A DNA stretch of 26,798 nt from Acidobacteriota bacterium (GTDB lineage Bacteria > Acidobacteriota > Terriglobia > Terriglobales > Acidobacteriaceae). The notes beneath the pieces were generated by a model, which did not search any database, had not been told where the DNA came from, and saw only the letters and a program-made list of their open reading frames with translations. Positions 531 to 26,704 of the stretch are shown piece by piece (the stretch's first letter is position 1; each line of letters begins with the position of its first letter). The DNA is taken from positions 1,289 to 28,086 of the forward strand of contig QIAK01000285.1 in NCBI GenBank assembly GCA_003225515.1. Direction: 5' to 3'. Made by a program: the position numbers and the translations under genes.

Positions 531-2471
531 ATGTGCGGAATCGCGGGCATCGTCACTAACGAGACGGGCGGGGTCGACACAGCCACCATCCATCGCATGT
601 GTCAGACCATTGTTCACCGTGGCCCGGATGACGAAGGCATTTTCGTCAAGGATGGAGTCGGCCTGGGCATGCGGCGCCTCAGCATCATCGATCTGGCAGG
701 AGGGCACCAGCCCGTCTTCAACGAAGATCGGAACGTTTGGATCGTCTATAACGGAGAAATTTATAACTTTAAGCAATTGCGGCAAGAGTTGGAAGCCCGT
801 GGCCACCGCTTTGCCAGCAATACCGACACCGAGGCGATCGTTCACTTGTATGAGGATATGGGGGCCGACTGCGTGCAGAAACTGCGCGGCATGTTTGCCT
901 TCGCGATTTATGACGAACGCGAGCGCAAACTACTGCTCGCGCGCGACCGCCTGGGGAAGAAACCGCTTCATTATGCATTTTCGAAAGGTCGACTGCTGTT
1001 TGGGTCGGAAATTAAGTCGATCCTGGAAGTGGCGCCGGAACTGGCTTCACCGATCAACTCCGAGGCTCTTGCCCAATACCTTTACTTCGGTTACATCCCC
1101 GATCCGCTGACGGCGTTCACGTCTATTCAAAAGCTTCCCCCGGGGCACATTCTGGAATTTCAAAATGGCGAGATCCGCACTCGGCAGTATTGGGACTTGC
1201 CTCAATTCGCGACCCATGCTCCTGCCAGCGAAGAGGAGTGTCTCGAAGAACTCGAGCACAAGCTGGCGGAGGCGGTACGCATTCGGCTGATTTCCGATGT
1301 GCCTTTGGGAGCTTTGCTGAGCGGGGGCACGGATTCTTCGACAGTAGTTGCGTTGATGGCTCGCGCCACTTCGGCGCCGGTAAAGACGTTTGCGATCGGG
1401 TTCAAGCATGCCGACTTCAACGAAGCTCACTACGCCAAGATCGTCGCGGAACGATTTGGAACCGATCACCATGAACTGATCCTCGAACCCGACGTGGTGC
1501 AGACGGTGGAGACGTTGACGCATTCCCTCGAGGAGCCGTTTGGAGATTCTTCCATGCTGCCGACTTACTACGTGTCGTGTCTGGCGCGGCAGCATGTGAA
1601 AGTCGCTCTCTCCGGGGATGGAGGCGATGAAGTTTTTGCGGGCTACGATCGCTATGGTATCCAATCGCGTCGCCAGGCTTTCGAGCGCGTACCCGCCTGG
1701 GCGCGTCGTTGGTACCGTGAGAAAGTATATCCGCTACTTCCGCGGAATATGCGGGGGCGCAAATTCTCCTACAACGTTTCCTTGCCCTGGCGCGAGCGCT
1801 ATGTCGATGGCATCTCGTTTGTTCCTGCATTCGAACGGGAAATGCCGCTGCTGTCCGACGATTTCCGCGCATCCCTCAGCGGCAAGAACGACCCGCAACG
1901 TCTGATGTTCGATTATTTTGATCGTGCTCCGGCCCACGACCCTGTGAGCGAGATGCTTTACGTCGACACCAAGACTTATCTCACGGCGGACATTCTGGCG
2001 AAGGTGGACCGGATGAGCATGGCGACCTCTCTGGAAGTCAGGGTGCCGATCCTGGATCACGTATTCCTGGAATGGGTGACCGGACTTCCGCCGGATTGGA
2101 AACTGCGCGGTACAAAACAAAAGTACATTTTCAAAAAACTCGCCGAGCGAGTGGGCGTGCCGAAAGAGGTGCTGTACCGGCGCAAGCAAGGGTTTGCGCT
2201 GCCTCTCGCAGAATGGTTCCGGCACGAACTGAAAGACATGGCATCCACAGTCTTGCTGGAGCCGCGCTCGTTGCAGCGCGGATACTTCAATCCGCAAGGC
2301 GTCCGCCAGATTTTGGCGGAACATTTTGAAGGACGACGCGACCAGTCGGGGCGCATATGGCGGCTATTAATGCTTGAATTGTGGCATCGCAACTTTCTCG
2401 AGGCAGGCAGCCGGGAAAGTTCTCCGGCGTCCGCGGATTATGCCGTGTCTGAGCCTGGGGGCGCGGGATGA
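531..2471 (+). CDS. asnB: Asparagine synthase (glutamine-hydrolysing)-like amidotransferase, copy 1
   Basis: N-terminal nucleophile MCGI; HRGPD, RRLSIIDL, NGEIYN, RDRLGKKPL; ATP-pyrophosphatase motifs LSGGTDSS and SGDGGDE; KVDRMSMA. 646 aa. Confidence 0.95.
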   Translation: MCGIAGIVTNETGGVDTATIHRMCQTIVHRGPDDEGIFVKDGVGLGMRRLSIIDLAGGHQPVFNEDRNVWIVYNGEIYNFKQLRQELEARGHRFASNTDTEAIVHLYEDMGADCVQKLRGMFAFAIYDERERKLLLARDRLGKKPLHYAFSKGRLLFGSEIKSILEVAPELASPINSEALAQYLYFGYIPDPLTAFTSIQKLPPGHILEFQNGEIRTRQYWDLPQFATHAPASEEECLEELEHKLAEAVRIRLISDVPLGALLSGGTDSSTVVALMARATSAPVKTFAIGFKHADFNEAHYAKIVAERFGTDHHELILEPDVVQTVETLTHSLEEPFGDSSMLPTYYVSCLARQHVKVALSGDGGDEVFAGYDRYGIQSRRQAFERVPAWARRWYREKVYPLLPRNMRGRKFSYNVSLPWRERYVDGISFVPAFEREMPLLSDDFRASLSGKNDPQRLMFDYFDRAPAHDPVSEMLYVDTKTYLTADILAKVDRMSMATSLEVRVPILDHVFLEWVTGLPPDWKLRGTKQKYIFKKLAERVGVPKEVLYRRKQGFALPLAEWFRHELKDMASTVLLEPRSLQRGYFNPQGVRQILAEHFEGRRDQSGRIWRLLMLELWHRNFLEAGSRESSPASADYAVSEPGGAG

Positions 2472-4813
2472 TCTCGCCGGCAGGGGACACGAGTTCCGAC
2501 TCGCCCGCCGGCACTGAGAAAGACAGCCGTCCGCCGGTTTTCATGATGATAGAGAGTCTGGAGACGGGTGGCAGCGAACGCCAGTTCGCCGCGCTGGCCC
2601 GCGCTTTGAATCCTCGCTCCTTCCGCCTTTTGTTGGGATGCATCCGTAGAGGCGGCCCGTTCTTAGAGGGGTTGGGGGATGTGCCTCAATTTCCCCTGGG
2701 CGGCAGCCTTTATGGCTTGCAATCGCTGCGCACGCGCTTTCATCTGGCCCGCCATCTGCGCCGAAACAGTGTGCGCATCGCACACTCGTTTGATTTTTAT
2801 TCAAATCTGACCATGATTCCCGCGGCGCGGCTCGCCGGCGTGCCCGTGGTAATTGGAAGCCAGCGCCAGCTGGGCGACCTGCTCAGCCCGGCACAATATC
2901 GAACCCAACTGCAGATGTTTCGCTGGTGCAACATGGTTGTGTGTAACTCAGAAGCGGCGGCGGCGCGGCTGATCGAAGATGGTTTGCCGCAGCGAAAAGT
3001 GACGGTCATCGGAAACGGCTTGCCGCCAAGCGCCTTTTCGAAAGCGAGTGCGGCATTACCTGGTGTTCCCGGGATGCTGCGAGTGGGCATGATTGCCCGC
3101 ATGAATGCCGCCTACAAGAATCATCGCTGCTTTCTCCAAGCGGCTGCCCGGCTGGTAAAGAAAGTTCAAGGCGTGGAGTTCGTTTTGATCGGCGACGGTC
3201 CCTTGCGTCCGGAGTTTGAGCGCATGGCTGCGGAATTAGAAATCCGGGAGCGGGTTCAATTCCTCGGAGACCGGCGCGACATTCCGGCCGTACTCGGCGC
3301 GATGGACGTGACAGTTCTGCCCTCTGATTCTGAAAGCTTGTCCAATGTGGTGCTGGAATCGATGGCGGCAGGGGTTCCAGTCGTGGCATCGGCGGTCGGA
3401 GGCAACATCGAACTGCTGTCCGGCGAGCGCGGCGTGCTGGTACCCAGGAACGATGACGCGGAGTTAGCGGCTGCCCTGGAGCGGCTCCTGCTCAATCCTG
3501 AATTAAGGGCGAAACTAGCCGATGAAGCGAAGAATTTCGTGCAAGCGAACTACGGCATGAAACATGTGCAAGAGAGCTATGAAGCGCTGTACCGCGAGCA
3601 GTTGGCCAGGAAAAATGTGGGTCCGGCGTACTCGCCTGTTCCTCTGTCGCGTCCTTCTACACCGAAGCGCCTGCGCGTGGCAATAGTGGCTCCAACTTTG
3701 CGTTGGGTAGGTGGACAAGCGGTGCAGGCGGATCTACTGTTGCGGAATTGGAAAAATGACCGGGATGTGGAAGCAGTCTTTATTCCGGCTGATCCGCGCT
3801 TACCCGCCGGTCTGAGGTGGATCGAACGCATTCCTTTTCTACGCACCATCGTGCGCGAGCCATTGTATAGCTTGAAGCTATGGCATGGATTGAAGGATGT
3901 GGATATCGCTCACATCTTTTCCGCTTCATACTGGTCGTTTCTGTTGGCCCCGGCGCCCGCCTGGTTCATAGCGCGGTTACGCGGCAAAAAAATGCTCATC
4001 AACTACCGCAGCGGAGAAGCGCGCGACCATCTCCAGCGATTCCGCAGTGCAAGTTTTGTGCTGCGGAGAGCGGATCGCCTGGTGACCCCTTCCCAATACT
4101 TAGTCGACGTGTTTCGCGAATTCGGCCTGGAAGCGCAGGCTGTGCCCAATCTAGTCGATCTGTCGCAGTTTTCTTTTCGCCTTCGTAAGCCGCTGCGGCC
4201 GCATCTGGTGTGCACGCGCGGCTTTCATCCCTATTACAGCGTCGACGTCGTGGTGCGCGCCTTCGCCGAAGTTCTGAAAAGTTATCCTGAAGCTCGTCTC
4301 GACTTAGTTGGCGGAGGGCCGATGGAAGTGGAAATTCGGGCTTTGGTCGCCGACCTGAAGTTAGCCGGAGTGAGTTTTACAGGCGTGGCTTCGCGGAACG
4401 AAATCGGGCGTCACTATGACCGCGCGGACATCTTCATCAATGCGTCCTGCATCGATAATATGCCGGTGTCCCTTCTGGAGGCATTTGCATCTGGAACGCC
4501 GGTGGTCAGCACGGCGCCGGAAGGAATCCGATACCTGGTGGAGGATGGCCGCACCGGACTTCTTTCGCAGCCGGGGGATGCCCAGGCCTTAGCCGCGAAC
4601 GTGATTCGATTGCTGAATGAGCCGGAGCTCGCGAGCCAGTTGATCGCGAATGCTTTCGAGCAGTCCAAGCAATACCATTGGGATGCAGTGCGTGAGCAAT
4701 GGCTTGCGGTTTACCGTTCCATGCTGGGTAGCGCAGTCCGGCCAGCAAGGAACTCCCCGGATCCGGTGGCAGAGCCGGCGGAGCTTGCTGAGCCTGTGAA
4801 TCCCAACCGATGA
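2468..4813 (+). CDS. Tandem two-domain GT4 (GT-B) glycosyltransferase fusion
   Basis: Domain 1: GGSERQ...GDGPLR...ESLSNVVLE (EX7E) GVPVVAS. Pro-rich linker near 3615-3670. Domain 2: GGQAVQA...DNMPVSLLE (DX7E) GTPVVST. ATGA overlap with the asnB stop. Confidence 0.92.
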   Translation: MISPAGDTSSDSPAGTEKDSRPPVFMMIESLETGGSERQFAALARALNPRSFRLLLGCIRRGGPFLEGLGDVPQFPLGGSLYGLQSLRTRFHLARHLRRNSVRIAHSFDFYSNLTMIPAARLAGVPVVIGSQRQLGDLLSPAQYRTQLQMFRWCNMVVCNSEAAAARLIEDGLPQRKVTVIGNGLPPSAFSKASAALPGVPGMLRVGMIARMNAAYKNHRCFLQAAARLVKKVQGVEFVLIGDGPLRPEFERMAAELEIRERVQFLGDRRDIPAVLGAMDVTVLPSDSESLSNVVLESMAAGVPVVASAVGGNIELLSGERGVLVPRNDDAELAAALERLLLNPELRAKLADEAKNFVQANYGMKHVQESYEALYREQLARKNVGPAYSPVPLSRPSTPKRLRVAIVAPTLRWVGGQAVQADLLLRNWKNDRDVEAVFIPADPRLPAGLRWIERIPFLRTIVREPLYSLKLWHGLKDVDIAHIFSASYWSFLLAPAPAWFIARLRGKKMLINYRSGEARDHLQRFRSASFVLRRADRLVTPSQYLVDVFREFGLEAQAVPNLVDLSQFSFRLRKPLRPHLVCTRGFHPYYSVDVVVRAFAEVLKSYPEARLDLVGGGPMEVEIRALVADLKLAGVSFTGVASRNEIGRHYDRADIFINASCIDNMPVSLLEAFASGTPVVSTAPEGIRYLVEDGRTGLLSQPGDAQALAANVIRLLNEPELASQLIANAFEQSKQYHWDAVREQWLAVYRSMLGSAVRPARNSPDPVAEPAELAEPVNPNR

Positions 4814-5469
4814 GCCTATCTCTTGAAAGAATCCGTGCTCCGCGTAAATATGCGAGAGCATTGCGGTGGTGCAGCGCGCTATTGGGATGCGTTCTCCTGC
4901 TTGCGGGGCTATTAATGCACTGGGGAGGCCGCCTGCTGGAGTCGAGCGATCCGCTTTCTGCGCACGCCGATGCGGCCATTGTGCTCGAGGGATCTTGGCT
5001 GGGAGAACGAACCCGGTTGGCTGGAGCAATGCAACTGCTGCAGCAAGGGCTACCGTCACGCGTGCTGTTGCCGCTTCCGCCCGAATCCTACTGGGGCGAT
5101 CCTGTGACTCCTATGGCTCGGCATTTCCTGGACACAAACTACGGCCATGAGCTTTCGGAGCGGGTCGATTTCTGCGACATAGGTCCGGACGTAGATTCGA
5201 CAAAGCAAGAGGCTCACCGGATTGGCGAATGCATTCGGGATCACCATTGGGCAAGCATTATTGTTGTGACGTCGAACTATCACACACGCCGGGCAGGAAT
5301 TATATGGCGCAGGATGATGCGAAAGGAAAATCCGGCGCTGCAGATTTCAGTGTATGGCGTTGCGGATCAGGATTTCCGGGCGGAGGGCTGGTGGCGGAAA
5401 CGGCTTTGGGCCAAGACCTGGCTGATGGAGTTCACGAAGCTGATTTGGGCAGAGACCTTCGGGCGCTAG
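4810..5469 (+). CDS. YdcF/ElyC-like (DUF218) membrane-anchored protein
   Basis: N-terminal hydrophobic helix (ALLGCVLLLAGLLM); ADAAIVLEG, STKQEA, IIVVTSNYHTRRA motifs. ATGA overlap with the GT stop. Confidence 0.85.
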   Translation: MSLSLERIRAPRKYARALRWCSALLGCVLLLAGLLMHWGGRLLESSDPLSAHADAAIVLEGSWLGERTRLAGAMQLLQQGLPSRVLLPLPPESYWGDPVTPMARHFLDTNYGHELSERVDFCDIGPDVDSTKQEAHRIGECIRDHHWASIIVVTSNYHTRRAGIIWRRMMRKENPALQISVYGVADQDFRAEGWWRKRLWAKTWLMEFTKLIWAETFGR

Positions 5470-5504: not shown

Positions 5505-7460
5505 TCACGGGGTAGAAGCCAGATCGGCTTTCCGATCTTGCATTTCGAAATCGTGGGAATCGCCTTCCAGACAGACTCGATGCCAGAGTTCCAGATTCAG
5601 CAGTCGCCAGATGCGGTCGTAATGATCGCGATGGTGGGCGCGATGTTCATGAAACAAGCGCTCGACTGCCGCGCGCCGAAAAAGACCACGAGCCATGCTG
5701 CGTGGTTCCAGAAGAAGTTGCTCAATATTATCGAGATGCGGACCAGCAAGCCAGCCACTCCACGGGGTAGGGAAGCCCAATTTCGGACGATAGATAATCG
5801 AATTCGGGAGAAGGTCCTCCATAGCTTTTTTCAAGATGTGCTTGCCTGAAAGCCCGTTGAGTTGATGGCTGCGCGGGATGTTGACGGCGAACTCGACCAG
5901 TTCGTGATCGAGGAATGGCACACGGCTCTCAATGGAGGCGGCCATGCTCATGTTGTCCTGTTTCATCAATAGCTCAACCAGATAGGTCTTGATGTCGGTG
6001 TAGAGCAAGCGCTGCAGCATCTCGCCAGAAGAGCTTTCCCAGGCCTCGAGTACATGGGTATAGGCCGATTCCGAGGAGAACTGTGAGGCAGTTTCTTCCG
6101 ACAACAACGCAGTCTGATCTTTCTCGCCGAATGCCGAGAAGAAATTATCGAAATAGAAAGAAGCCCAGGAAGAGCGGTCGAGAGCGAGGAAGGTGTGGCT
6201 GAGTTTGCGGCGGGCGGTGGCGCCGATCAAGTTTGAATCGGAAATCGATTGCCGTATTTTTCTGCGGAAGAAACCGGGCATCACTCGCCGGTAAACATCG
6301 TCCCAGGCGGTGTTTTTTAAGGTAAACGCGTACCGCGAGTATCCGCCCAAAGTTTCGTCGCTGCCTTCGCCGGTCAAAACTACTTTCACGCGGCTGCGAG
6401 CGAGTTCGGCGACAAAGTAAAGAGCCACGCTGGAGGGCCACGCGATGGGTTCGTCCTCGTGCCAGATCAGCTTGGGCAGGGAATCAAAAAAATCCTGCCG
6501 GCTGAGCAGCACTTCATGATGAATCGAATTTATGTGCTGGGCCACGACCCGCGCATAAGGGAGTTCACTATAGTTGGTCTCGGTGTAGCCGACAGAGAAA
6601 CTCTCGACCGGCGTGCCGCGAAGTTTGGTCATCAATGCAGCCACAGCGCTCGAATCCAGGCCGCCACTGAGAAAGACCCCGAGAGGAACATCACTCATCA
6701 AATGGCTGCCGACCGCCTGTTCGAGACGTTCGCGGTAGGCATCGACGTAATACGACTGTGGGTGTGCCTCAGTCTCGCCGTGAAGCGGCAGGTCCCAGTA
6801 GCGAGAGATTTTTATTTCGCCGTCTTCCTTTAGCTCGAGTGTGTGCCCCGGCATCAGCTTCTTGATTCCGGAATAAAAAGTGTCCTCTCCGGAAAGATAG
6901 CCAAAGGCCAGATACTCGGGCAGACCTTTTGAATTGAATTCGGCAGGGACGCCTGGATGAGCGAGAATCACCTTGATTTCCGAGCCGAAAAGAAATGACT
7001 TGGACGTAAGCCGGTAATAAAGGGGCTTGATGCCCAAACGATCGCGGGCCACGAAAAGCGTCCGCCGGCGGGTATCCCAGATGGCAAAGGCGAACATGCC
7101 GCTCAAGTGCCGAACACAATCGCTGCCGTACTGTTCGTAGAGATGTACGATGGTTTCGGTATCGCTGTGAGTGGTGTAACGATGGCCTTTTTGAACGAGC
7201 TGTTCACGGAGCGATGCGTGGTTGTAAATCTCTCCATTGAAAACGATCCACAGAGTGCCGTCTTCATTGCTGATGGGCTGGTGGCCCGTAGCCAGATCGA
7301 TGATGCTCAGGCGGCGCATTCCCAAGCCCACGGCACCATCGGTGTAGACGCCTTCATCATCGGGGCCGCGGTGGGCCATGGCTCGGCACATCTGGCGCAC
7401 CGTGGCAGGATCGACCTGCTCATTCCTCGAAAACCGGACGACACCGGCAATTCCACACAT
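5505..7460 (-). CDS. asnB: Asparagine synthase (glutamine-hydrolysing)-like amidotransferase, copy 2
   Basis: MCGIAG, HRGPD, RRLSIIDL, FNGEIYN, RDRLGIKPL, LSGGLDSS, TGEGSDE, KQDNMSMA. GGGAGA RBS upstream. 651 aa. Confidence 0.95.
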   Translation of the reverse strand: MCGIAGVVRFSRNEQVDPATVRQMCRAMAHRGPDDEGVYTDGAVGLGMRRLSIIDLATGHQPISNEDGTLWIVFNGEIYNHASLREQLVQKGHRYTTHSDTETIVHLYEQYGSDCVRHLSGMFAFAIWDTRRRTLFVARDRLGIKPLYYRLTSKSFLFGSEIKVILAHPGVPAEFNSKGLPEYLAFGYLSGEDTFYSGIKKLMPGHTLELKEDGEIKISRYWDLPLHGETEAHPQSYYVDAYRERLEQAVGSHLMSDVPLGVFLSGGLDSSAVAALMTKLRGTPVESFSVGYTETNYSELPYARVVAQHINSIHHEVLLSRQDFFDSLPKLIWHEDEPIAWPSSVALYFVAELARSRVKVVLTGEGSDETLGGYSRYAFTLKNTAWDDVYRRVMPGFFRRKIRQSISDSNLIGATARRKLSHTFLALDRSSWASFYFDNFFSAFGEKDQTALLSEETASQFSSESAYTHVLEAWESSSGEMLQRLLYTDIKTYLVELLMKQDNMSMAASIESRVPFLDHELVEFAVNIPRSHQLNGLSGKHILKKAMEDLLPNSIIYRPKLGFPTPWSGWLAGPHLDNIEQLLLEPRSMARGLFRRAAVERLFHEHRAHHRDHYDRIWRLLNLELWHRVCLEGDSHDFEMQDRKADLASTP

Positions 7461-10079: not shown

Positions 10080-10088
10080 ACTTTCAGC

Positions 10089-11762: not shown

Positions 11763-11998
11763 CGGGGACCAATCCTACCACCGTAGTTCAAGCTATAAGC
11801 TTTTTTTTCAAAAAAGCGCATTTGGAGAGCAGCTTCGGGCGAAGAGTTGCATCTGAATAGGGCTTCTGGCGGCCATCTGGGTGCCCCGATGGAAACCGGT
11901 ATATGTAATTTTGCGGTCACACTGGAGTAATATCGGGGTGAAAACCTCGGGCGGGGTCTGCCGGAATGAAGTGCACTAGAGCAATGAGGAGAAGCTGC

Positions 11999-17651: not shown

Positions 17652-17897
17652 TTATCATCTTGATTCCTGCCTGAGTCCTGTTCCAAGCCCCACAGCGACC
17701 TAGAGTCCCCCGACGGCCTTCAGCCTCCTCCCTTTCAGCCGCACTTTGGTACACGTCACGTTCCTGCAACGATGTACTTACGTGTCCGTCAAGGACAAGT
17801 ACCTTGGTTATCTGGGAGGATCACAGATCGATCTTTAAAGTCAAGCGTAAGGACTCGAAAGTTTGAAGTCCCCCCACTTCCTTTTTCGAGGTTACGC

Positions 17898-20384: not shown

Positions 20385-22757
20385 ATGATATCGAGTGCGT
20401 ACCGGATCTTTCGAAAATTGCGCGCCATGGACCGGCATGAGGTCGCAGATCGTTGCCGCCAGGAGCTCTCCAAGCGCTGCGATGCTCTGTGGTCACGATT
20501 TCAGCACGACTTCACCAACAACGCTTTTACCAGCGGGGAGTGGCGACCGGGTCTGTTTTTCTTTGCGCCCGAACAACTCGGATCTCTGATCGAGTTGCTG
20601 CGCGAACGATTTCCGCTTCAGGTGGAGAATATCCTCGCAAAATCAGAGCGGATTCTGGAGCATCGCTTCGATCTGCTCGGGTTCGAGGACCTACGCTACG
20701 GGGAACGCATCAATTGGCACCTCGACTTAGTTCATTCGAAAGAAGCATCCGCGAAGCCTTTCCACCGCGTGAACTATCTCAACTTCGCCGAAGTTGGAGA
20801 CAGCAAAATAACCTGGGAGCTGAACCGCCATCAGCATTTAGTCACACTAGCCAAAGCGTACCGGCTGACTGGGGACGAGCGCTACGCGCGCGAGATTCAT
20901 TCGCAATGGCGAGATTGGCATGCCGCGAATCCGTATCCCATAGGAATCAACTGGGCGAGCACCCTGGAGGTGGGTTTTCGAAGCCTGTCCTGGATGTGGG
21001 TTTACTATCTGCTTGAAGGCACAGGGACACTGGATTCAGGGTTTCGCCACGAGTGGCTGCGGGCCCAGGCTTTGAATGGACGTCACCTGGAGCGTTATCT
21101 CTCCACATACTTTTCGCCCAACACTCATTTGCTCGGCGAAGGAGTGGCCTTGTTCGTCCTAGGCACGATGTGTCCAGAACTCTCAGGCGCGGCGCGTTGG
21201 AAGGCCCGAGGATGGCAAATCGTTCTCGACGAAGCCCGCCGGCAAGTGGCTCCGGATGGAATGCATTTCGAAAAATCGACCTATTATCACGTGTATGCCC
21301 TCGATTTCTTCCTGCATGCCGTCGTACTTGCTTCGAGAAACGCCCAGAGCATTCCACCTGAATTAGAAGAGACTCTCGAAAAAATGCTCGATGTGCTATG
21401 TCTGCTGGGCTCGGAAGGTGCGCCTCCGCGATGGGGCGACGATGATGGTGGCCGTTTGTTCGATCCTGCGCGAAATCGCGCAGAGCACATGCTCGATCCT
21501 TTAGCCGCCGGAGCCATTCTCTTCAATCGCGCCGATTTTAAATCTCTTGCCAGAGGTCTACGCGAGGAAACGATTTGGCTGCTGGGAAAAGCTGGCGTAG
21601 AGCGGTGGGATCGCATAGAACCGAAAGCTCTTGTGCCGGCGTCTGCCGCCTTGGAATCGTCGGCGATCTACGTTATGACAACAAAACGGGGGCAGTTGTT
21701 GATGGATTGTGGCTGCTCCTCCGGGCAAAGTCATGGGCATGATCATGCCGGCGCGCTGAGCGTCTGTCTGCAGGCAAACCAGCAAGCATTGCTGATTGAT
21801 CCCGGTACATTCGAATACGTCGGCCCCGGACCGGAGCGGAATAAGTTTCGCGGCACCGCGATGCATAACACACTGCGAGTCGACAACCAGGATCAGGCCG
21901 AGCCGGACGGACCATTCTCCTGGAAACAGCATTTCCAGGCTCGCGCGGAGCAATGGATTACAGGAGTAAGTTTCGTTTTTTTCGCCGGCAGTCACAATGG
22001 CTACGCACGCCTTCCGTCCCCGGTGGTGCACAGGCGCTGCATCGTCGCCCTGAGGTCCGGTATTTTTTTGGTGCGCGACATTGCGGAGGGCAGCGGCCAG
22101 CACCGGCTGGATATTTCATGGCACCTGGCTGCGGATTTGTTGCAGCCGAAGGGAGCCGAGGGGAAGCAAGTGTTTTGTCTCCCGAATTCCGCCAAGGGCC
22201 TGACGATTTTGCCGGCTGTGGGTCATGGCTGGACAGAACAATCTAGTAAGGGGCAGTGGTCGCCCGTGTACGGCCGCCAGTCCGAAGCCATGATCCTGAA
22301 TTTCGCTGCATCCGTTACCTTGCCTGCTGAGTTCGTCGCGCTTCTGGTGCCTGAGTGTGAATCGGCACTTACGAATGCACAAAGCATTCCGGGTAAATTC
22401 ATACGGGCGCAGCACTCGAATGCGACTGCTTTCGTTCAAGCTTACCGCTATGAGACTGGCGAAGCCGAGTATCAGTTTTTCTTCGGACGCGCTGATCAAA
22501 CGTGGCAGGCAGGATCGGTATCGAGTGACGCAGAATTCGTATGCCTGTCTTCGGGGCTGGGGCAGCACGAACCTGAGATCGTATTCTGCAATGGTACCCA
22601 CGTAGATATCGCAGGATTGCAATCCGTTCATACGAACCGCAAGGTCACGCGCTACGAGCGCCTTCTCGGGCCGTTGCGCATTTCTTGTTCCGATCCCGAC
22701 GCAATCATCTCTACCGACCGACCGAGTCAGCCTGCATATCAGAATCCTGCTCGCTAA
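20385..22757 (+). CDS. Heparinase II/III-like (alginate lyase-fold) protein
   Basis: WELNRHQHL, SPNTHLLGEG, DGMHFEKSTYYHVY, GDDDGG, GHDHAGALS, LIDPGT, HNTL, HNGY. No evident signal peptide. 790 aa. Confidence 0.9.
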   Translation: MISSAYRIFRKLRAMDRHEVADRCRQELSKRCDALWSRFQHDFTNNAFTSGEWRPGLFFFAPEQLGSLIELLRERFPLQVENILAKSERILEHRFDLLGFEDLRYGERINWHLDLVHSKEASAKPFHRVNYLNFAEVGDSKITWELNRHQHLVTLAKAYRLTGDERYAREIHSQWRDWHAANPYPIGINWASTLEVGFRSLSWMWVYYLLEGTGTLDSGFRHEWLRAQALNGRHLERYLSTYFSPNTHLLGEGVALFVLGTMCPELSGAARWKARGWQIVLDEARRQVAPDGMHFEKSTYYHVYALDFFLHAVVLASRNAQSIPPELEETLEKMLDVLCLLGSEGAPPRWGDDDGGRLFDPARNRAEHMLDPLAAGAILFNRADFKSLARGLREETIWLLGKAGVERWDRIEPKALVPASAALESSAIYVMTTKRGQLLMDCGCSSGQSHGHDHAGALSVCLQANQQALLIDPGTFEYVGPGPERNKFRGTAMHNTLRVDNQDQAEPDGPFSWKQHFQARAEQWITGVSFVFFAGSHNGYARLPSPVVHRRCIVALRSGIFLVRDIAEGSGQHRLDISWHLAADLLQPKGAEGKQVFCLPNSAKGLTILPAVGHGWTEQSSKGQWSPVYGRQSEAMILNFAASVTLPAEFVALLVPECESALTNAQSIPGKFIRAQHSNATAFVQAYRYETGEAEYQFFFGRADQTWQAGSVSSDAEFVCLSSGLGQHEPEIVFCNGTHVDIAGLQSVHTNRKVTRYERLLGPLRISCSDPDAIISTDRPSQPAYQNPAR

Positions 22758-22908: not shown

Positions 22909-24736
22909 ATGCTTCGCATTGCCATCCCATTGTTGCTGGTCTCCTGCCTTGTCGATACGGGTACTTGCTTCGGGCAAGTCGAGAAAAAGCCAAGCCAGAA
23001 TGCGTCGAAGCCCGACGAGAAAACACGGGCGGGTTGCGGACAATCCTACTGCGCCGAAACGACTCGCGAGCCTAAGCCCGGGAGTCCCGTCGTTCCGCCA
23101 AAGGCAAATCAAGTTTTTCACGATCCCGAGTTTGGCTCGCGACTCATAAGAGTTACTGACGACAGCGGAATCGACGGAAAACTCACCGGCATGAGCTTTG
23201 GCGCGAACTCGTCGGCGGAGATCAATGAATGGGGAAAATTCGATCCCTCGCTCGGATCATCCGGTGGATATTACTTCTATGTCATGACCGGCGGCGGAGG
23301 CTCGGTTTTGTTCACGATGGATGCCGCGACCATGAAGGTCACGCCGCATTGCGATTCGCTGCCCGTGTGCCGGCTTCCGTCCGGGGGCAGCTTCAGTTAT
23401 GTCGATCCGCATATCGTCTACGGCCATTTTGGATCGAACAGCACGATCGACAGTTATGACGTTGTAAAAGGAAAGCAATCAACCATCTACGATTTCAGCA
23501 AATGTCCGCACCTGCCCAACGACCTTTCCGGATACCCGGGCGCAATTTCAAACAGCGGAGATGACAGCAAATTCTCCGCCTACGCCGGCGGTAAAGGACA
23601 AGGCGGCGGCAGCCAAGTCACGTACTACGACCGAACTACTGGACGTTGCTATTGGTACGACACTGGCAGCGGCCGTGTAGGTGGTTCTGAAATGCCGGCA
23701 ACGGACGTTAAAGCTGGAATCCTCGCGCCGCCTGCTGCTCCGCGGCTGAAGAGTGCTGCGGGAAGTCTTCCGGCAGGCGATTACTACGTGCGACTGACCG
23801 CAAACACACGGCGGCCGACAGGTCCCGGTGAGACGCTTCCGTCACCAGAAGAGCACATCCGCTTGACATCGAGCGGAGGGATCGAGGTCGATGCGCCCGA
23901 GATACGTGTACATCGGGACGATTCCTGGGCAGGAGACACGCCAGGGTTCAGTTGATCAGGTTAAGAGTGGATACACGCAGGCGGTTTCATTGACCAAGGC
24001 GAGCAGTCCGCCAACCACCACCAGCGCTGGCTACAACGTTCACAATGTGCGCCTGAGCCGTGACGGCAGCACATTGAAAATCACTCCCGCCGGGGCCCGC
24101 GATATGTTCTTCTGGACGCCGAAGACTGCTATGGTTTCTGCCTGCACTACCGCCGGTGAGGGACACGGTGGAGTTGCCAGCTATTGCGGCGGCCATACGG
24201 TGCTGGGTTATTCGCACCTGATCAACCACGGCGGTCCCGGCAACATGGTGAGTCTGCTCTACCGGCCATTGTCAGACCTGACCCAGATCAAGCAACTGCT
24301 TCCCCCCGAAGAATCGGTGCCATTCTTCGGGGATACGCATTGGTCGTGGAATAACGCCGATCCTGCCGATTCAACGCCGGTATGCGGAGCTTTCTCGGGA
24401 ACGGCGATGAGGCAAGGAGATGGCACACGGAATCCCGCTACAAACCCGCTTCTCGTGGAACGGCAACCGTGGGAGAGGGAAGTGGTTTGCGTTGCAACCT
24501 CGGGTACACCCCACGTCTGGCGATTCGCCCACCATCACGCCACCGGAGCTTGTAATGCGAATGCCAGAGCAGGGTCATGCTTCAACTCGCTCGCAATCGG
24601 AAACGTTTCGCAGGACGGCAAATTCTTTTTGTTCGGGAGCGACTGGGACTGGAACCTGGGAAGCGAGACGCGCAATCCGGGATGCCCGACCGCGGGCAGG
24701 TGCCGATTCGACGCCTTCATTGTGGAGTTAAAGTAG
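22909..24736 (+). pseudogene. Frameshifted secreted beta-propeller protein (ORFs 22909..23955 and 23891..24736), paralogue of 17898..20012
   Basis: Signal peptide and GAGGAG RBS on the first ORF only. The two ORFs overlap by 65 nt in different frames. Together they span 1828 nt (3x609+1) and align end to end with the propeller domain of 17898..20012. Could be an assembly or sequencing error. Confidence 0.7.
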
Positions 24737-24741: not shown

Positions 24742-24820
24742 AACCGCGAAGGACACGAAGTTACACGAAGGAACCCGATCAGGGATTTTTCCTTCGTGAA
24801 CCTTCGTGCCCTTCCTGGTT
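24742..24820. repeat. 32-bp imperfect inverted repeat (REP-like hairpin, probable bidirectional terminator) between convergent genes
   Basis: 24742-24773 versus reverse complement of 24789-24820: 27/32 identical, 15-nt loop. Sits between stops at 24736 (+) and 24819 (-). Confidence 0.8.
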
Positions 24821-25871
24821 AAAGTTCTTTTGTCTTTCTTTTCCCGGGTTTCTCAGCCTTCAAGAGTTTCCGAACCCTTTGCTCCATGCCTGGGGGCGCG
24901 CTTTGCAGCAGCGAGCGCGCGGTTGCGCGGAGATTTTCCTTCAAGTCATGCCGGCGGAACAGAGTACGGTCGAGGCGATAGCGGACGATGGGAGTCACGG
25001 TGCCTCCGAACCGCCGCAGGAATTCGTGAGCGCCGCCCAACGAATGCCGACGAAGCCCCTGATCACAAGCCCACTGGATTCCCCTCCACTGCAATAAATC
25101 ATTCGGCTTCAAGTGCATGAATTCGTCGAGTGAGCTATTGGCGGCAGACTCGAACAAGCCGCCGGGGAAAAAACGGAAGATGTTGATGGCAATTACTTTC
25201 CCGGAGAATGTAGCCAGAAATAGCCGGCGATTGTTCCTGAGACTGACGGTTTTCTCAAAAGACTCGAAGCTCCATTCGCCATGGACCTGCTTCCGCTCGG
25301 TGCCACGCCAGGCCGAATATACTGCGTGAGCGTCAAACATGTCCTGCTTGCTGACAGCTTCGCGGACTTCCACACCGTGCTTCTCCGCATAACGAATATT
25401 TCTACGCCGGTCTTTGGAAAAATCTTTGAACAGCGCCTCAGCGCCGCGGGTGAGATCGAGCACTACGCTTCCCTGCAATTGATGGCGCCGGAAGCCGCAC
25501 GCCGAAAAAGGGGCAAGCTCAAGAGAAGCCCAGGTATAGACGTGCACCAGGTCCGCGCGGGCTGCCTCCGCCAGCAAACCTTTCGCCAGCATATCGAGTG
25601 TGGCCGCGTTATCTGTGCCATCCACACAAATCTGCGGACGCGAGGTGAGTCCGGATAGGACCTCTTTCTCCAGGTGAAATCCCGTTAGGACTCCTCGGAC
25701 TTGATTCCCATCGAGCGCCAGAACCGCGAACGGCCGAGTGCCTCGACGAAGCGGATCGAGGAAGTACTCCGGAGAATCGTAATGGGAAGGAATTTCCACA
25801 CGAGTCAGAAACTCGCGCCAGGCTCGCTCCAGCTCAGGCCCGGGAAAGCCATCAAGAATCTCAAATTTCAA
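24819..25871 (-). CDS. GNAT/FemABX-like (Acetyltransf_6-type) transferase, copy 2
   Basis: TTG start with AGGAG RBS; FSKDRRRNIRYAEKHGVEVRE; LKPNDLLQWRGIQWA; LGG...FLRRFGG. 350 aa. Confidence 0.82.
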   Translation of the reverse strand: MKFEILDGFPGPELERAWREFLTRVEIPSHYDSPEYFLDPLRRGTRPFAVLALDGNQVRGVLTGFHLEKEVLSGLTSRPQICVDGTDNAATLDMLAKGLLAEAARADLVHVYTWASLELAPFSACGFRRHQLQGSVVLDLTRGAEALFKDFSKDRRRNIRYAEKHGVEVREAVSKQDMFDAHAVYSAWRGTERKQVHGEWSFESFEKTVSLRNNRRLFLATFSGKVIAINIFRFFPGGLFESAANSSLDEFMHLKPNDLLQWRGIQWACDQGLRRHSLGGAHEFLRRFGGTVTPIVRYRLDRTLFRRHDLKENLRATARSLLQSAPPGMEQRVRKLLKAEKPGKRKTKEL

Positions 25872-25897: not shown

Positions 25898-26704
25898 CTA
25901 GCGGGCCTGTTGCGCCAGCCCGATGTGCGGTTCGACCAGAGCAAGCAGGCTATTTTTCAGGAAGGGGCCGCAGGCCAGCAGACCCGACAGGAGTGGATCT
26001 CGGCGATTGGCGGTTAAATCCGTCTTTTCCAGTGTACTAACAAAGCCGCCCGCGCTCTGCACCAATGCCGCTCCCGCCACCACGTCCCATTCGTTCTTGG
26101 GTGTAAGCGTAAACGTAACATCTGCAAGGCCCGCCGAAACAAGCGCGAGCTTGTAAGCCACAGAACCCATTGGCCGGATCACGACGGAAGAGTTCTCAAA
26201 TGCCTTCCACTCGCCGCGTTTCACTTCGCTGCGGCTGGCTAGAATCAACGCGCCCTCCAGGCTGGTGCGCTGGCTGGGATGCGAAGGCTTGCCGTTGTAA
26301 GTTACGCCGCAATCGATTGCTCCCAAAAATGTTTCGTCGGTTGCAGGATTGTAGATGCCGCCGGCCATCGGCCTTCCATTCTCGACGAATCCGATTGAAA
26401 CGCAGAACTCTGGAATTCCTTTCACGAATTCACGCGTGCCATCGAGCGGATCAACCACCCAAACGCGCGAGCGCTGCAGGCGAATGGGGTCATCCACGCT
26501 CTCCTCGGAGAGCCAGCCCTCGTCATCGCGCAGCAGGTTCTGGCGCAACACCGCGTCTAGAGCGCGGTCCGCCTCGGTCACGGGATCATGCCCGATCTTG
26601 TATTCGGTCTCAATCGCGCCCGGGGTGAAGCGGGAGAAGACAGTGCGTGAAGCGGCTAATGCGGCCTCGATGCGGGCCAGAATGTCCGAATAGGCAGAAG
26701 TCAT
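25898..26704 (-). CDS. cysQ: 3'(2'),5'-bisphosphate nucleotidase CysQ / inositol monophosphatase family
   Basis: DPVTEAD, WLSEE, WVVDPLDGTREF, GSVAYKLALV, EWDVVAG motifs; ASRSE segment. Confidence 0.85.
   Translation of the reverse strand: MTSAYSDILARIEAALAASRTVFSRFTPGAIETEYKIGHDPVTEADRALDAVLRQNLLRDDEGWLSEESVDDPIRLQRSRVWVVDPLDGTREFVKGIPEFCVSIGFVENGRPMAGGIYNPATDETFLGAIDCGVTYNGKPSHPSQRTSLEGALILASRSEVKRGEWKAFENSSVVIRPMGSVAYKLALVSAGLADVTFTLTPKNEWDVVAGAALVQSAGGFVSTLEKTDLTANRRDPLLSGLLACGPFLKNSLLALVEPHIGLAQQAR

What the first reader, a model, noticed from the sequence alone, without database searches (positions are those of the whole stretch)
531..26704. Candidate pathway for a sulfated, amidated, uronic-acid (glycosaminoglycan-like) bacterial polysaccharide
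Seen: one locus holds a uronic-acid-forming dehydrogenase, a CE4 deacetylase, two PAPS sulfotransferases, a PAP phosphatase, a heparinase II/III-fold protein, two amidotransferases, two GNAT/Fem-like transferases, a methyltransferase, a tandem GT4 and a Wzx flippase. Established: animal heparan/dermatan sulfate maturation uses the same logic (N-deacetylation, N-/O-sulfation, uronate C5 chemistry, PAP removal), and genetically defined bacterial sulfated EPS loci are few (e.g. the cyanobacterial synechan xss cluster). Inference: this is an independently assembled analogue in a probable Acidobacterium. None of the tailoring enzymes shows a signal peptide, so modification would occur in the cytoplasm on nucleotide-sugars or lipid-linked units, and Wzx would have to flip a sulfated unit.
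Basis: partly seen in the sequence, partly recalled or inferred. Interest (0 to 1): 0.82.

Follow-up and report, generated by a model that had tools for sequence, protein, structure and literature searches.

The report
Sulfated mannuronate exopolysaccharide locus, soil Acidobacteria
An uncultured soil acidobacterium carries a conserved gene cluster that very probably builds a sulfate-decorated, mannuronic-acid-containing slime polymer; the prediction is sound, but it is a sulfated version of a known bacterial exopolysaccharide system, not a heparin-like pathway.

Summary
The genes stay together in related genomes. The window is the tailoring half of an XrtA/PEP-CTERM exosortase-type Wzx/Wzy exopolysaccharide locus. 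It comes from a Terriglobales MAG whose genus includes 'Ca. Sulfotelmatobacter'. The export and initiation half (Wza, Wzz, kinase, initiating transferase, Wzy) and XrtA lie on other contigs. The PAPS synthase sits just past the contig end, in a PAPS synthase-TauE-CysQ operon conserved in 55 of 56 genus genomes.

Sulfation is well supported. Both sulfotransferases keep their PAPS-binding motifs and are homologous to XssE of the cyanobacterial synechan cluster.

The glycosaminoglycan analogy is weak:
- The dehydrogenase is an AlgD-type GDP-mannose 6-dehydrogenase, so the uronate is mannuronate.
- The amidotransferases, FemAB-like proteins, deacetylase and GT4s are the standard XrtA kit.
- The sulfotransferases are TPST/CurM-like, not heparan-type.
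- The cytoplasmic heparinase III-fold protein also occurs in genomes without these sulfotransferases.

Sulfated polysaccharide clusters with PAPS cassettes are already documented (synechan, Cobetia marina). Earlier follow-ups of this scan reported similar loci in other soil Acidobacteria. I rate it a new member of a known kind, interest about 0.45. No chemistry or expression data exist.

The parts
2..526 (+). C-terminal part of a conserved 427-aa protein of unknown function. It is always directly upstream of AsnB1 and is split by a frameshift at the window start.
   Evidence: Adjacent to AsnB1 in 22 of 22 loci having both. The intact 427-aa form is at G011:C1:676617-677900. The two HSPs in contig C366 lie in different frames. 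No Pfam hit. Atlas features give only a faint lead to polysaccharide deacetylase.
531..2471 (+). AsnB-type glutamine amidotransferase 1, of the XrtA/PEP-CTERM amidotransferase type
   Evidence: Asn_synthase 357 bits plus GATase_7. TIGR03108 711 bits, below its cut-off of 817. Adjacent to the tandem GT4 in 38 of 41 loci.
2468..4813 (+). Tandem GT4 glycosyltransferase with two GT4 modules
   Evidence: Two stretches for each GT4 Pfam family. Best NCBIfam hits are the XrtA-system GT families TIGR03088 (residues 25-379) and TIGR04063 (residues 585-753), both below cut-off.
4810..5469 (+). DUF218 protein with an N-terminal TM segment; a variable accessory gene
   Evidence: PF02698 32.8 bits. TM-like segment at residues 17-44. 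Found in only 2 of 54 related loci.
5505..7460 (-). AsnB-type glutamine amidotransferase 2
   Evidence: Asn_synthase 349 bits. TIGR03108 607 bits. In relatives it is the operon partner of the heparinase-fold gene, adjacent in 23 of 29 loci.
7731..9053 (+). GDP-mannose 6-dehydrogenase (AlgD-like), which makes GDP-mannuronic acid
   Evidence: Full-length match to P. aeruginosa AlgD (PDB 1MFZ): 465 bits, E 3e-138, residues 4-440 against 2-436. The best UDP-glucose dehydrogenase scores 248 bits. All three UDPG_MGDP_dh domains are present.
9060..10079 (+). GNAT/FemAB-like transferase 1
   Evidence: Acetyltransf_6 39 bits. TIGR03019 (XrtA-associated FemAB family) 48 bits, below cut-off. Adjacent to sulfotransferase 1 in 24 of 27 loci.
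10089..11069 (+). PAPS-dependent sulfotransferase 1 (Sulfotransfer_3, XssE-like)
   Evidence: PF13469 96.5 bits. The motifs PRSGT (5'-PSB) and RDxRDxxxS (3'-PB) are invariant in 8 homologues. hhalign to pSYSM XssE gives probability 99.5%, E 1e-22. Orthologues occur in about 15 of 24 same-genus genomes.
11088..11762 (-). SAM-dependent methyltransferase; a variable accessory gene
   Evidence: Methyltransf_25/12/11 hits near threshold. Found in 3 of 54 related loci.
11966..12856 (+). Secreted SGL/strictosidine-synthase-like beta-propeller; a variable accessory gene
   Evidence: PF08450 35.6 bits. Signal-peptide-like N-terminus. Found in 1 of 54 loci.
12910..14439 (-). Wzx-type MOP flippase
   Evidence: Polysacc_synt_3 212 bits. 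MOP flippase NF007773 201 bits. Multiple TM segments.
14707..15708 (+). PAPS-dependent sulfotransferase 2, a paralogue 43-44% identical to sulfotransferase 1
   Evidence: PF13469 88.5 bits. Shares the same invariant motifs. Adjacent to CE4 in 9 of 22 loci.
15832..16815 (+). Cytoplasmic beta-propeller of unknown function, similar to TIGR03032/DUF4915 by language-model features
   Evidence: AlphaFold model with pLDDT 86 and pTM 0.87. Only generic propeller matches were found. 2561 homologues, mostly unnamed. His and Asp residues are invariant. It stays with CE4 and CysQ in relatives.
16869..17651 (+). CE4 polysaccharide deacetylase, no signal peptide
   Evidence: Polysacc_deac_1 91 bits, covering model positions 4-123 of 124. 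N-terminus is not hydrophobic.
17772..20012 (+). He_PIG (Ig-like) domain protein, probably a lipoprotein or membrane-anchored
   Evidence: PF05345 45 bits. Hydrophobic segment at residues 67-86 ending in a Cys. Its C-terminal part is paralogous to the product of 22909-24736.
20385..22757 (+). Cytoplasmic heparinase III-fold protein (uronate lyase/C5-epimerase superfold)
   Evidence: Hepar_II_III_N 124 bits and Hepar_II_III_C 131 bits. Model pLDDT 85. Best PDB matches are heparinase III (E 1e-25), then PL39/PL17/PL15 alginate lyases, then DS-epimerase 1 at rank 19. N246/H248, Y301 and H452/H454 are invariant in 34 orthologues. No signal peptide.
22909..24736 (+). Secreted protein of unknown family, read as two overlapping frames (22909-23955 and 23891-24736)
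   Evidence: In relatives the two parts are contiguous on one strand. Independent low-coverage contigs break exactly at 23889/23904. Signal-peptide-like N-terminus.
24819..25871 (-). GNAT/FemAB-like transferase 2
   Evidence: Acetyltransf_6 38 bits and FemAB 32 bits. Found in only 2 of 54 related loci.
25898..26704 (-). CysQ-type 3'-phosphoadenosine-5'-phosphate (PAP) phosphatase
   Evidence: Inositol_P 160 bits. Best NCBIfam hit is CysQ TIGR01331 at 125 bits, below cut-off; HisN scores 118. It lies about 0.9-1.0 kb downstream of the PAPS-synthase gene, on the same strand, in 55 of 56 genus genomes having both. A TauE permease gene lies between them.

Best explanation
The window is the repeat-unit assembly and tailoring half of an XrtA/PEP-CTERM exosortase-type, Wzx/Wzy-dependent exopolysaccharide locus. 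It belongs to an uncultured soil Terriglobales acidobacterium whose genus includes 'Ca. Sulfotelmatobacter' MAGs.

Proposed mechanism (inferred unless marked as shown):
1. [quoted passage not shown] A TauE-family permease and CysQ are encoded beside it, and CysQ removes the PAP by-product. The gene arrangement is shown; the activities are inferred.
2. An AlgD-type dehydrogenase makes GDP-mannuronic acid. The homology is shown.
3. A TIGR03013-type phosphoglycosyl transferase starts a repeat unit on undecaprenyl phosphate. GT2 and GT4 enzymes, including the tandem GT4, extend it.
4. Tailoring happens on the cytoplasmic face. The CE4 enzyme removes an N-acetyl group. Two XssE-like sulfotransferases add sulfate. 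AsnB-type amidotransferases and FemAB-like enzymes amidate or acylate carboxyl or amino groups. The heparinase III-fold enzyme abstracts the C5 proton of a mannuronate residue, giving either epimerisation or elimination.
5. Wzx flips the sulfated unit. The Wzy_C protein polymerises it. The Wzz/tyrosine kinase/Wza proteins export it.

The product would be a sulfated, mannuronate-containing heteropolysaccharide. It would not be a glycosaminoglycan.
For: - Domain content.
- AlgD-level match of the dehydrogenase.
- PAPS-binding motifs invariant in both sulfotransferases. Homology to XssE of the genetically defined synechan cluster.
- Synteny in 6 of 6 relatives. Recurrence within 10 kb of the sulfotransferase in 54 full-length loci: AsnB1 37, GT4x2 35, heparinase-fold gene 31, CE4 26, dehydrogenase 24.
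- In the window's own genome, contig C148 carries the sigma-54 activator, Wza, Wzz, ATPase, tyrosine kinase, phosphoglycosyl transferase (TIGR03013 450 bits against cut-off 393), GT2, GT4 and Wzy. Contig C318 carries XrtA (TIGR03109 219 bits against 208), an EpsI-family protein, a TPR protein and a PEP-CTERM protein. There are six PEP-CTERM domains genome-wide.
- The PAPS synthase N-terminus ends contig C523, and TauE is cut by the end of the window's contig. This matches the PAPS synthase-TauE-CysQ order seen in relatives.
- That operon is the only APS-kinase gene in five relatives checked. It lies on the same contig as the sulfotransferase genes, 4 to 46 kb away, in 9 relatives.
- The single CysH in relative G011 carries the CC...CxxC motif typical of APS reductases. 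If so, PAPS is not needed for sulfur assimilation there.
- None of the tailoring enzymes has a signal peptide.
Against: - There are no chemical data on the polymer and no expression evidence. No RNA run holds the locus.
- The sulfotransferase acceptor is unknown. The nearest solved relatives are protein-tyrosine and polyketide sulfotransferases.
- In five related loci the sulfotransferase 1 orthologue (about 71% identity) stands alone among housekeeping genes.
- The PAPS module is present in nearly every genome of the genus (57 of 60), so it is not specific to this locus.
- Most XrtA-family hits are below their curated cut-offs.
- The window's contigs are not physically joined, so adjacency is inferred from relatives.
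- Two genes are frame-split in this MAG, which has only 4-5x coverage.
- The window's heparinase-fold copy reads HDHAG where 32 of 34 orthologues read HGHAD.
Confidence: 0.72

Rival explanations
1. One reading: the locus is a convergent analogue of heparan/dermatan sulfate maturation. A HexNAc-uronate backbone would be N-deacetylated, N/O-sulfated and C5-epimerised, giving a glycosaminoglycan-like polymer.
For: CE4 deacetylase and sulfotransferase 2 are adjacent in 9 of 22 loci. The heparinase III-fold protein is cytoplasmic and keeps its catalytic residues. It shares its fold with human DS-epimerase 1, which is rank 19; PMC8006597 describes the fold kinship and suggests small active-site changes could switch lyase to epimerase. 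A PAP phosphatase is present.
Against: The uronate precursor is GDP-mannuronate, not UDP-GlcA. No heparosan-, hyaluronan- or chondroitin-type synthase is present. The only GT2 in the own-genome locus is a weak PgaC/NodC-like hit, far below cut-off. The sulfotransferases are PF13469/TPST-like, with weaker hits to the PF00685 family that includes heparan sulfotransferases. The amidotransferases, FemAB-like proteins, CE4 and GT4s are the standard XrtA kit. The heparinase-fold gene occurs in genomes without sulfotransferase 1/2 orthologues.
Confidence: 0.08
2. The sulfotransferases do not act on the polysaccharide. They would act on proteins or peptides (tyrosine sulfation, as in TPST), lipids or small metabolites, and lie in the locus for regulatory or historical reasons.
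For: The best solved relatives are protein-tyrosine sulfotransferases 1 and 2 and the CurM/olefin-synthase sulfotransferase domains. Sulfotransferase 1 orthologues stand alone among housekeeping genes in 5 of 79 loci. The locus encodes several secreted proteins.
Against: The PDB similarities are remote (E about 1e-10) and at family level only. A stronger profile match is to XssE, which sits in a polysaccharide cluster. Sulfotransferase genes are wedged between GT4, FemAB-like and CE4 genes in most loci. Cytoplasmic sulfotransferases can reach lipid-linked sugars.
Confidence: 0.12
3. The sulfated glycan is not, or not only, a free exopolysaccharide. The Wzy_C/'O-glycosylation ligase'-like protein would transfer it onto PEP-CTERM proteins sorted by XrtA, giving a proteoglycan-like surface layer.
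For: The only Wzy_C protein of the locus best matches TIGR03097, 'putative O-glycosylation ligase, exosortase A system-associated' (77 bits, below cut-off). XrtA and six PEP-CTERM proteins are encoded in the genome.
Against: The match is far below the family cut-off. No other polymerase candidate is present, so the protein is needed as Wzy. A complete Wzz/tyrosine kinase/Wza export set argues for a high-molecular-weight secreted polymer. The family name itself is only a hypothesis.
Confidence: 0.06

Closest known systems
Synechan (xss) cluster of Synechocystis sp. PCC 6803, plasmid pSYSM (Maeda et al. 2021, PMC8205485)
   Same: A Wzx/Wzy-type EPS cluster with two cytoplasmic sulfotransferases. 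The window's sulfotransferases are homologous to XssE (hhalign probability 99.5%, E 1e-22, 28% identity). In both systems sulfation is placed among the cytoplasmic modifications of the lipid-linked repeat unit, before flipping by Wzx; for synechan this rests on the general pathway description.
   Different: A different phylum. The window's locus uses the XrtA/PEP-CTERM export and regulation platform and includes an AlgD-type dehydrogenase, AsnB amidotransferases, FemAB-like proteins, CE4 and a heparinase-fold protein. A PAPS synthase-TauE-CysQ operon lies beside it. Regulation is by a sigma-54 activator instead of XssQRS. Synechan has genetic and chemical proof; this locus has none.
Sulfated capsule gene cluster of Cobetia marina KMM 1449 (PMC11766843)
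   Same: A polysaccharide cluster that carries its own sulfate-activation set (APS kinase, ATP sulfurylase, CysQ and a sulfate permease) next to the sulfotransferase genes.
   Different: The Cobetia cluster uses ABC-transporter (kps) export and separate cysNC and cysD genes. Its product is a rhamnose-mannose phosphoglycerol polymer with a solved structure. Here the pathway is Wzx/Wzy, the PAPS synthase is a single fused protein, and a TauE-family permease takes the place of the sulfate permease.
XrtA/PEP-CTERM exosortase-associated EPS loci, as defined by the NCBIfam/TIGRFAM families TIGR03109, 03013, 03007, 03015, 03018, 03027, 03097, 03108, 03019, 03006, 03088 and 04063. The original description by Haft and co-workers (2006) is cited from memory.
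   Same: XrtA and the TIGR03013 transferase pass their cut-offs. Export protein, chain-length determinant, ATPase, tyrosine kinase, ligase-like Wzy, AsnB amidotransferases, FemAB-like proteins and GT4s all have these families as best hits; the CE4 deacetylase hits its XrtA family only weakly. An EpsI-family protein, a TPR protein and PEP-CTERM proteins are present.
   Different: Most hits are below the curated cut-offs, so this is a divergent acidobacterial version. The sulfation module, the AlgD-like dehydrogenase and the heparinase-fold gene are not among the named XrtA families. No paper in the library combines sulfotransferase, PEP-CTERM and exopolysaccharide.
Alginate biosynthesis (AlgD and partners) of Pseudomonas and Azotobacter
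   Same: The precursor enzyme: the dehydrogenase aligns end to end with AlgD. The heparinase-fold protein resembles mannuronate-specific PL17, PL15 and PL39 alginate lyases in structure.
   Different: No Alg8/Alg44 synthase or AlgG/AlgE-type epimerase was seen in the locus. Assembly is repeat-unit based (Wzx/Wzy), not by a processive synthase.
Animal heparan/dermatan sulfate maturation (NDST, sulfotransferases, GLCE, DS-epimerase 1)
   Same: A general logic of deacetylation, PAPS-dependent sulfation, possible uronate C5 chemistry and PAP removal. DS-epimerase 1 shares the fold of the heparinase-like protein.
   Different: A different uronate (mannuronate), different sulfotransferase family, different compartment and assembly mode, and no HexNAc-uronate co-polymerase. 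Membership fails (see the membership test).

Membership tests
Bacterial sulfated-polysaccharide gene cluster (xss / Cobetia type) | Sulfotransferase gene(s) with intact PAPS-binding motifs inside a polysaccharide assembly cluster | tested here: met
   Two PF13469 proteins lie between GT4, FemAB-like, flippase and CE4 genes. The PRSGT and RDxRDxxxS motifs are invariant. They are homologous to XssE.
Bacterial sulfated-polysaccharide gene cluster (xss / Cobetia type) | PAPS supply and PAP removal available, ideally linked to the cluster | tested here: met
   A CysQ-like gene is in the window. TauE is cut by the contig end. The PAPS synthase N-terminus lies at the end of contig C523. The PAPS synthase-TauE-CysQ operon is found in 55 of 56 genus genomes having both, and lies beside the locus in relatives.
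Bacterial sulfated-polysaccharide gene cluster (xss / Cobetia type) | The polymer chemically contains sulfate, and this depends on the sulfotransferases | not testable with these tools
   All carriers found are uncultured MAGs.
XrtA/PEP-CTERM exosortase EPS system | Exosortase A (TIGR03109) encoded in the genome | tested here: met
   G000:C318 ORF 350-1285 scores 219.4 bits against a cut-off of 208. In relative G011 the exosortase lies 12 kb upstream of the locus.
XrtA/PEP-CTERM exosortase EPS system | PEP-CTERM sorting-signal proteins present | tested here: met
   Six PF07589 matches above cut-off in the own genome, one of them on the XrtA contig. There were none in 14 control genomes.
XrtA/PEP-CTERM exosortase EPS system | System-specific assembly and export genes (TIGR03013, 03007, 03015, 03018, 03027, 03097) clustered together | tested here: inconclusive
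   All are best hits and collinear on contig C148. Only TIGR03013 passes its cut-off (450 against 393). TIGR03015 scores 297 against 324.5, and the others are well below.
XrtA/PEP-CTERM exosortase EPS system | System amidotransferase (TIGR03108), FemAB-like protein (TIGR03019) and deacetylase (TIGR03006) | tested here: inconclusive
   TIGR03108 scores 711 and 607 bits against a cut-off of 817. TIGR03019 scores 48 and 20 bits against 260. TIGR03006 scores 21.5 bits against 276. These are the same families, but not equivalogs.
Glycosaminoglycan (heparan/heparosan-like) biosynthesis | UDP-glucose 6-dehydrogenase supplying GlcA | tested here: not met
   The dehydrogenase is AlgD-like: 465 bits to GDP-mannose 6-dehydrogenase against 248 bits to the best UDP-glucose dehydrogenase.
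Glycosaminoglycan (heparan/heparosan-like) biosynthesis | A HexNAc/GlcA co-polymerase (KfiA/KfiC, PmHS, HAS or EXT type) | tested here: not met
   Only GT4 modules are in the window. The one GT2 on C148 has only weak hits to PgaC/NodC (82 and 47 bits, far below cut-off).
Glycosaminoglycan (heparan/heparosan-like) biosynthesis | Heparan-type sulfotransferase or NDST, and a GLCE-type epimerase | tested here: not met
   The sulfotransferases score best on PF13469, and their nearest solved relatives are TPST and CurM. No GLCE-like domain was reported in any ORF. The lyase-fold protein is heparinase III-like.
PL12 heparinase III lyases | Catalytic Tyr and His plus neutralising Asn (Tyr294, His424, Asn240 of 4MMH; PMC12088678) | tested here: inconclusive
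   The Tyr equivalent (Y301) and histidines (H452, H454) are invariant in 34 orthologues. The Asn is displaced by one position (invariant N-T-H instead of N-H). The window's copy reads HDHAG where the consensus is HGHAD.
PL12 heparinase III lyases | Secreted or periplasmic degradative enzyme | tested here: not met
   There is no signal peptide. The gene is embedded in a biosynthetic operon next to AsnB2 and the dehydrogenase.
CysQ (PAP phosphatase) | Passes the CysQ equivalog model | tested here: not met
   TIGR01331 scores 125 bits against a cut-off of 229, and HisN scores nearly as high at 118. The assignment rests on the conserved operon with the PAPS synthase.

The most novel reading that the evidence does not exclude
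The signal-peptide-less heparinase III-fold enzyme is a biosynthetic C5-epimerase. It would convert mannuronate to guluronate on the lipid-linked repeat unit in the cytoplasm, before sulfation. If so, this acidobacterial lineage evolved an 'epimerise and sulfate a uronate polymer' strategy from a lyase fold, as animals did with DS-epimerase. The resulting sulfated polymer might also be handed to XrtA-sorted PEP-CTERM proteins.
Probability: 0.15. Interest if true: 0.8.

Novelty: new member of a known kind. Interest (0 to 1): 0.45.

Why it matters
Sulfated polysaccharides are well known in animals, algae and cyanobacteria. They are only beginning to be documented genetically in other bacteria.

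This locus and its PAPS operon are conserved across a large genus of uncultured soil Acidobacteria. MAGs of that genus carry the label 'Ca. Sulfotelmatobacter', and the DNA occurs in soil metagenomes from at least 14 studies. If the prediction holds, sulfated slime may be a common soil polymer. That would bear on soil aggregation, cation binding and the large pool of organic sulfate esters in soils.

The prediction would also give a genetic source for the sulfated, 'glycosaminoglycan-like' material reported by dye assays in environmental biofilms (discussed in PMC7356697). It points to two testable enzymes: an XssE-like sugar sulfotransferase and a cytoplasmic lyase-fold enzyme.

It does not reveal a new principle. 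The mechanism matches that proposed for synechan.

Tried and rejected
- APS kinase in the own genome: no hit. This is explained by the PAPS synthase being cut at the end of contig C523, so it is not absence.
- PAPS synthase as a marker of the sulfotransferase locus: rejected. It is present in 57 of 60 genus genomes, including ones without sulfotransferase 1/2 orthologues.
Not supported, not excluded.
- PEP-CTERM tails on the secreted He_PIG protein and its paralogue: none.
- Expression evidence: no RNA run holds the locus.
- Resolving the 23891-23955 frame split from independent assemblies: contigs of the two best runs break exactly there at 4-5x depth, so it remains unresolved and is probably an assembly artefact.
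- Literature on heparinase-like genes in biosynthetic clusters: two searches found nothing and one query was malformed.
- Lyase versus epimerase for the heparinase-fold protein: fold search ranks lyases first and DS-epimerase 1 at rank 19, which does not discriminate.
- No complex prediction was run, because no binding claim is made.

Full report
**Observation.** The window is G000:C366:1289-28086. That contig is 28.7 kb and belongs to a 639-contig MAG of 4.55 Mb, 56% GC, 76% complete. ORF listing and Pfam/NCBIfam scans confirm every item of the finding:
- two AsnB-type amidotransferases;
- a tandem GT4;
- a nucleotide-sugar 6-dehydrogenase;
- two GNAT/FemAB-like proteins;
- two Sulfotransfer_3 proteins;
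- a SAM methyltransferase;
- a MOP flippase;
- a CE4 deacetylase;
- a protein with both heparinase II/III domains;
- an inositol-monophosphatase-family protein whose best named hit is CysQ.

A simple hydropathy scan shows no signal-like N-terminus on any tailoring enzyme. These are a DUF218 membrane protein, a secreted SGL-type propeller, a cytoplasmic propeller (15832-16815), a He_PIG lipoprotein-like protein, and a paralogous secreted protein that is split into two frames.

**Taxon and habitat.** An alignment of the sulfotransferases found more than 500 relatives in the species-representative genome collection. Nearly all of the best 80 are Terriglobales/Acidobacteriota MAGs, several labelled 'Candidatus Sulfotelmatobacter'. 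Near-identical DNA occurs in soil metagenomes from at least 14 studies. No RNA run holds it.

**Co-occurrence.** Sulfotransferase 1 has orthologues (40-74% identity) in about 15 of 24 same-genus genomes. It has only two weak matches (E 6e-5 and 8e-4) in 16 same-order genomes of another family. In all six relatives whose loci I fetched, AsnB1, GT4x2, one or two sulfotransferases, AsnB2, the heparinase-fold gene, the dehydrogenase, CE4, the 15832 propeller and CysQ lie together.

Across 54 full-length loci (10 kb on each side) from other MAGs, the following lie within 10 kb of the sulfotransferase: AsnB1 in 37, GT4x2 in 35, the heparinase-fold gene in 31, CE4 in 26, the dehydrogenase in 24. Four stable modules emerge:
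- unknown gene-AsnB1-GT4x2, adjacent in 22 of 22 and 38 of 41 loci;
- AsnB2-heparinase-fold gene-dehydrogenase, adjacent in 23 of 29 and 17 of 28;
- FemAB-like 1-sulfotransferase 1, adjacent in 24 of 27;
- sulfotransferase 2-CE4, adjacent in 9 of 22.

One caveat remains. In five loci a 71%-identical sulfotransferase 1 orthologue stands alone among transhydrogenase, HAD hydrolase and amino-acid permease genes.

**The missing flanks.** In the nearly complete relative G011 the genes upstream of AsnB1 run in this order:
- exosortase;
- a sigma-54 activator;
- Wza (Poly_export);
- an unknown 503-aa protein;
- Wzz;
- an AAA_22 ATPase;
- a ParA-like tyrosine kinase;
- a Bac_transf initiating transferase;
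- a Wzy_C protein;
- a 427-aa unknown protein whose C-terminus is the window's first ORF.

Downstream, after the propeller and a methyltransferase, come CysQ, a TauE-family permease and a 720-aa protein with PUA_2, ATP-sulfurylase and APS_kinase domains. That last protein is a PAPS synthase.

The window's own genome has the same parts on other contigs:
- C148 carries the activator-to-Wzy block. Its initiating transferase passes the TIGR03013 'XrtA/PEP-CTERM system glycosyltransferase' cut-off.
- C318 carries XrtA (TIGR03109, 219 bits against 208), an EpsI-family protein, a TPR protein and a PEP-CTERM protein.
- C523 ends in the N-terminal two domains of the PAPS synthase.

The window's contig ends inside TauE. 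Six PEP-CTERM domains are found genome-wide, against none in 14 control genomes. So the finding is the tailoring half of an XrtA/PEP-CTERM-type EPS locus. Those families are the best hit for all but CE4, and all are mostly below cut-off.

**Sulfation module.** Both sulfotransferases keep the 5'-phosphosulfate loop (PRSGT) and the 3'-phosphate motif (RDxRDxxxS). Both motifs are invariant in eight homologues. Their nearest solved relatives are protein-tyrosine sulfotransferases and the CurM/olefin-synthase sulfotransferase domains, at E about 1e-10.

A stronger and more relevant link is to the second sulfotransferase of the synechan cluster on Synechocystis plasmid pSYSM. Its position next to the Wzy, GT4 and flippase genes identifies it as XssE (hhalign probability 99.5%, E 1e-22).

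The PAPS synthase-TauE-CysQ operon is conserved in 55 of 56 same-genus genomes that have both genes. It contains the only APS-kinase domain in five relatives checked. It lies on the same contig as the sulfotransferase genes, 4 to 46 kb away, in nine relatives. This operon context is the main basis for calling the phosphatase CysQ, because its model score is below cut-off and close to that for HisN.

The single CysH of relative G011 carries the CC...CxxC cysteines that, from established knowledge, mark APS rather than PAPS reductases. If that holds, PAPS there serves sulfotransfer and not assimilation. The operon is genus-wide, so it is not specific to this locus. Genomes without sulfotransferase 1/2 orthologues mostly carry other Sulfotransfer_3 genes.

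**The uronate.** The dehydrogenase aligns end to end with Pseudomonas aeruginosa GDP-mannose 6-dehydrogenase AlgD (PDB 1MFZ). That match scores 465 bits, nearly twice the score of any UDP-glucose dehydrogenase. The acidic sugar is therefore most likely mannuronic acid.

**The heparinase-fold protein.** An AlphaFold model (pLDDT 85, pTM 0.89) shows an alpha/alpha toroid plus a beta-sandwich. The best matches are heparinase III (E 1e-25), then PL39, PL17 and PL15 alginate lyases, with human DS-epimerase 1 at rank 19.

The residues equivalent to heparinase III Tyr294 and His424 (residue numbers from PMC12088678) are invariant in 34 orthologues. So is an N-T-H motif near the Asn240 position. The window's copy reads HDHAG where 32 of 34 orthologues read HGHAD.

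The protein has no signal peptide. In relatives it sits in an operon with AsnB2, next to the AlgD-like gene. I infer that it acts on a mannuronate residue by C5 proton abstraction. The data cannot say whether the outcome is epimerisation or elimination. PMC8006597 documents that DS-epimerase 1 shares this fold and suggests that small changes could switch the activity.

Orthologues occur in genomes without sulfotransferase 1/2 orthologues (G005, G009, G012, G014, G019 and G029). A divergent Sulfotransfer_3 gene does lie 20 kb from the heparinase-fold gene in G009. The gene therefore belongs to the EPS core rather than to the sulfation module.

**Verdict on interpretation and novelty.** The prediction of a sulfated, uronic-acid, probably amidated polysaccharide from an acidobacterium stands. 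The 'independently assembled analogue of heparan sulfate maturation' does not:
- the uronate is wrong;
- there is no HexNAc-uronate co-polymerase;
- the sulfotransferase family is different;
- most 'tailoring' genes are the ordinary XrtA kit.

Prior art exists. The synechan cluster has genetic and chemical proof (PMC8205485). The Cobetia marina capsule cluster has cysNC, cysD, cysQ, a permease and sulfotransferases, and its product structure is solved (PMC11766843). Pontiella has a putative cluster (PMC7356697).

Within the searchable library, no paper combines sulfotransferase with PEP-CTERM and exopolysaccharide, or with Sulfotelmatobacter. Earlier follow-ups of this scan reported similar sulfotransferase-plus-PAPS loci in other soil Acidobacteria. 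I did not test those loci. I class this as a new member of a known kind, with moderate interest. Everything beyond homology and synteny is inference, and no chemistry or expression data are available.

Noticed in passing
window 15832-16815: A conserved cytoplasmic beta-propeller (model pLDDT 86) with many invariant His and Asp residues (for example D101, H103, H104, H162, H165, H168, H203, D204). It has 2561 mostly unnamed homologues. Language-model features place it near TIGR03032/DUF4915. It stays next to CE4, sulfotransferase 2 and CysQ in relatives. Function unknown.
   Followed up: partly
window 17772-20012 and 22909-24736: Two paralogous secreted or lipoprotein-like proteins share a C-terminal domain with no Pfam family. 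The first also has a He_PIG Ig-like domain. Neither ends in a PEP-CTERM signal. Copies recur in relatives' loci (up to three in G024).
   Followed up: partly
window 23889-23955: The frame split between ORFs 22909-23955 and 23891-24736 coincides exactly with contig breaks (23889/23904) in independent soil assemblies at 4-5x depth. It is probably an assembly artefact rather than a pseudogene.
   Followed up: yes
contig G000:C366:1281-1290 (just before and at window position 1): The conserved 427-aa gene upstream of AsnB1 is also split into two frames in this MAG. It is intact in G011:C1:676617-677900.
   Followed up: partly
window 24745-24822: An inverted-repeat hairpin lies between the convergent genes. 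It is built on CACGAAGG/CCTTCGTG-type arms. A short core (about 24787-24823) reaches very high summed depth (up to about 625) in soil metagenome contigs, so it is a widely repeated small element or terminator motif.
   Followed up: no
G000:C356 (about 830-2260, 8090-8673, 14981-15268) and G000:C5:4247-4885: The same genome has further Sulfotransfer_3 genes. Two or three are on contig C356 together with He_PIG-like proteins, and one lies within a 907-aa open frame on C5. This suggests at least one more sulfation-related locus.
   Followed up: no
L043, L044, L046, L048, L053 (match at about 10001-10978 in the first four): In a sub-lineage of Terriglobia MAGs the sulfotransferase 1 orthologue (about 71% identity) is a solitary gene between transhydrogenase, HAD hydrolase and amino-acid permease genes, away from any EPS genes.
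   Followed up: partly
G011:C1:698522-702391 and equivalents in 55 genus genomes: A PAPS synthase (PUA_2, ATP-sulfurylase and APS kinase fused)-TauE-CysQ operon is a near-universal single-copy feature of the genus. The genus CysH looks like an APS reductase, which suggests that PAPS-dependent sulfation is a core trait of this lineage.
   Followed up: partly
window 21732-21761 (residues 449-456 of the 20385-22757 product): The window's heparinase-fold copy reads S-H-G-H-D-H-A-G where 32 of 34 orthologues read G-H-G-H-A-D. The conserved Asp is replaced by Gly and an Asp appears two positions earlier.
   Followed up: yes
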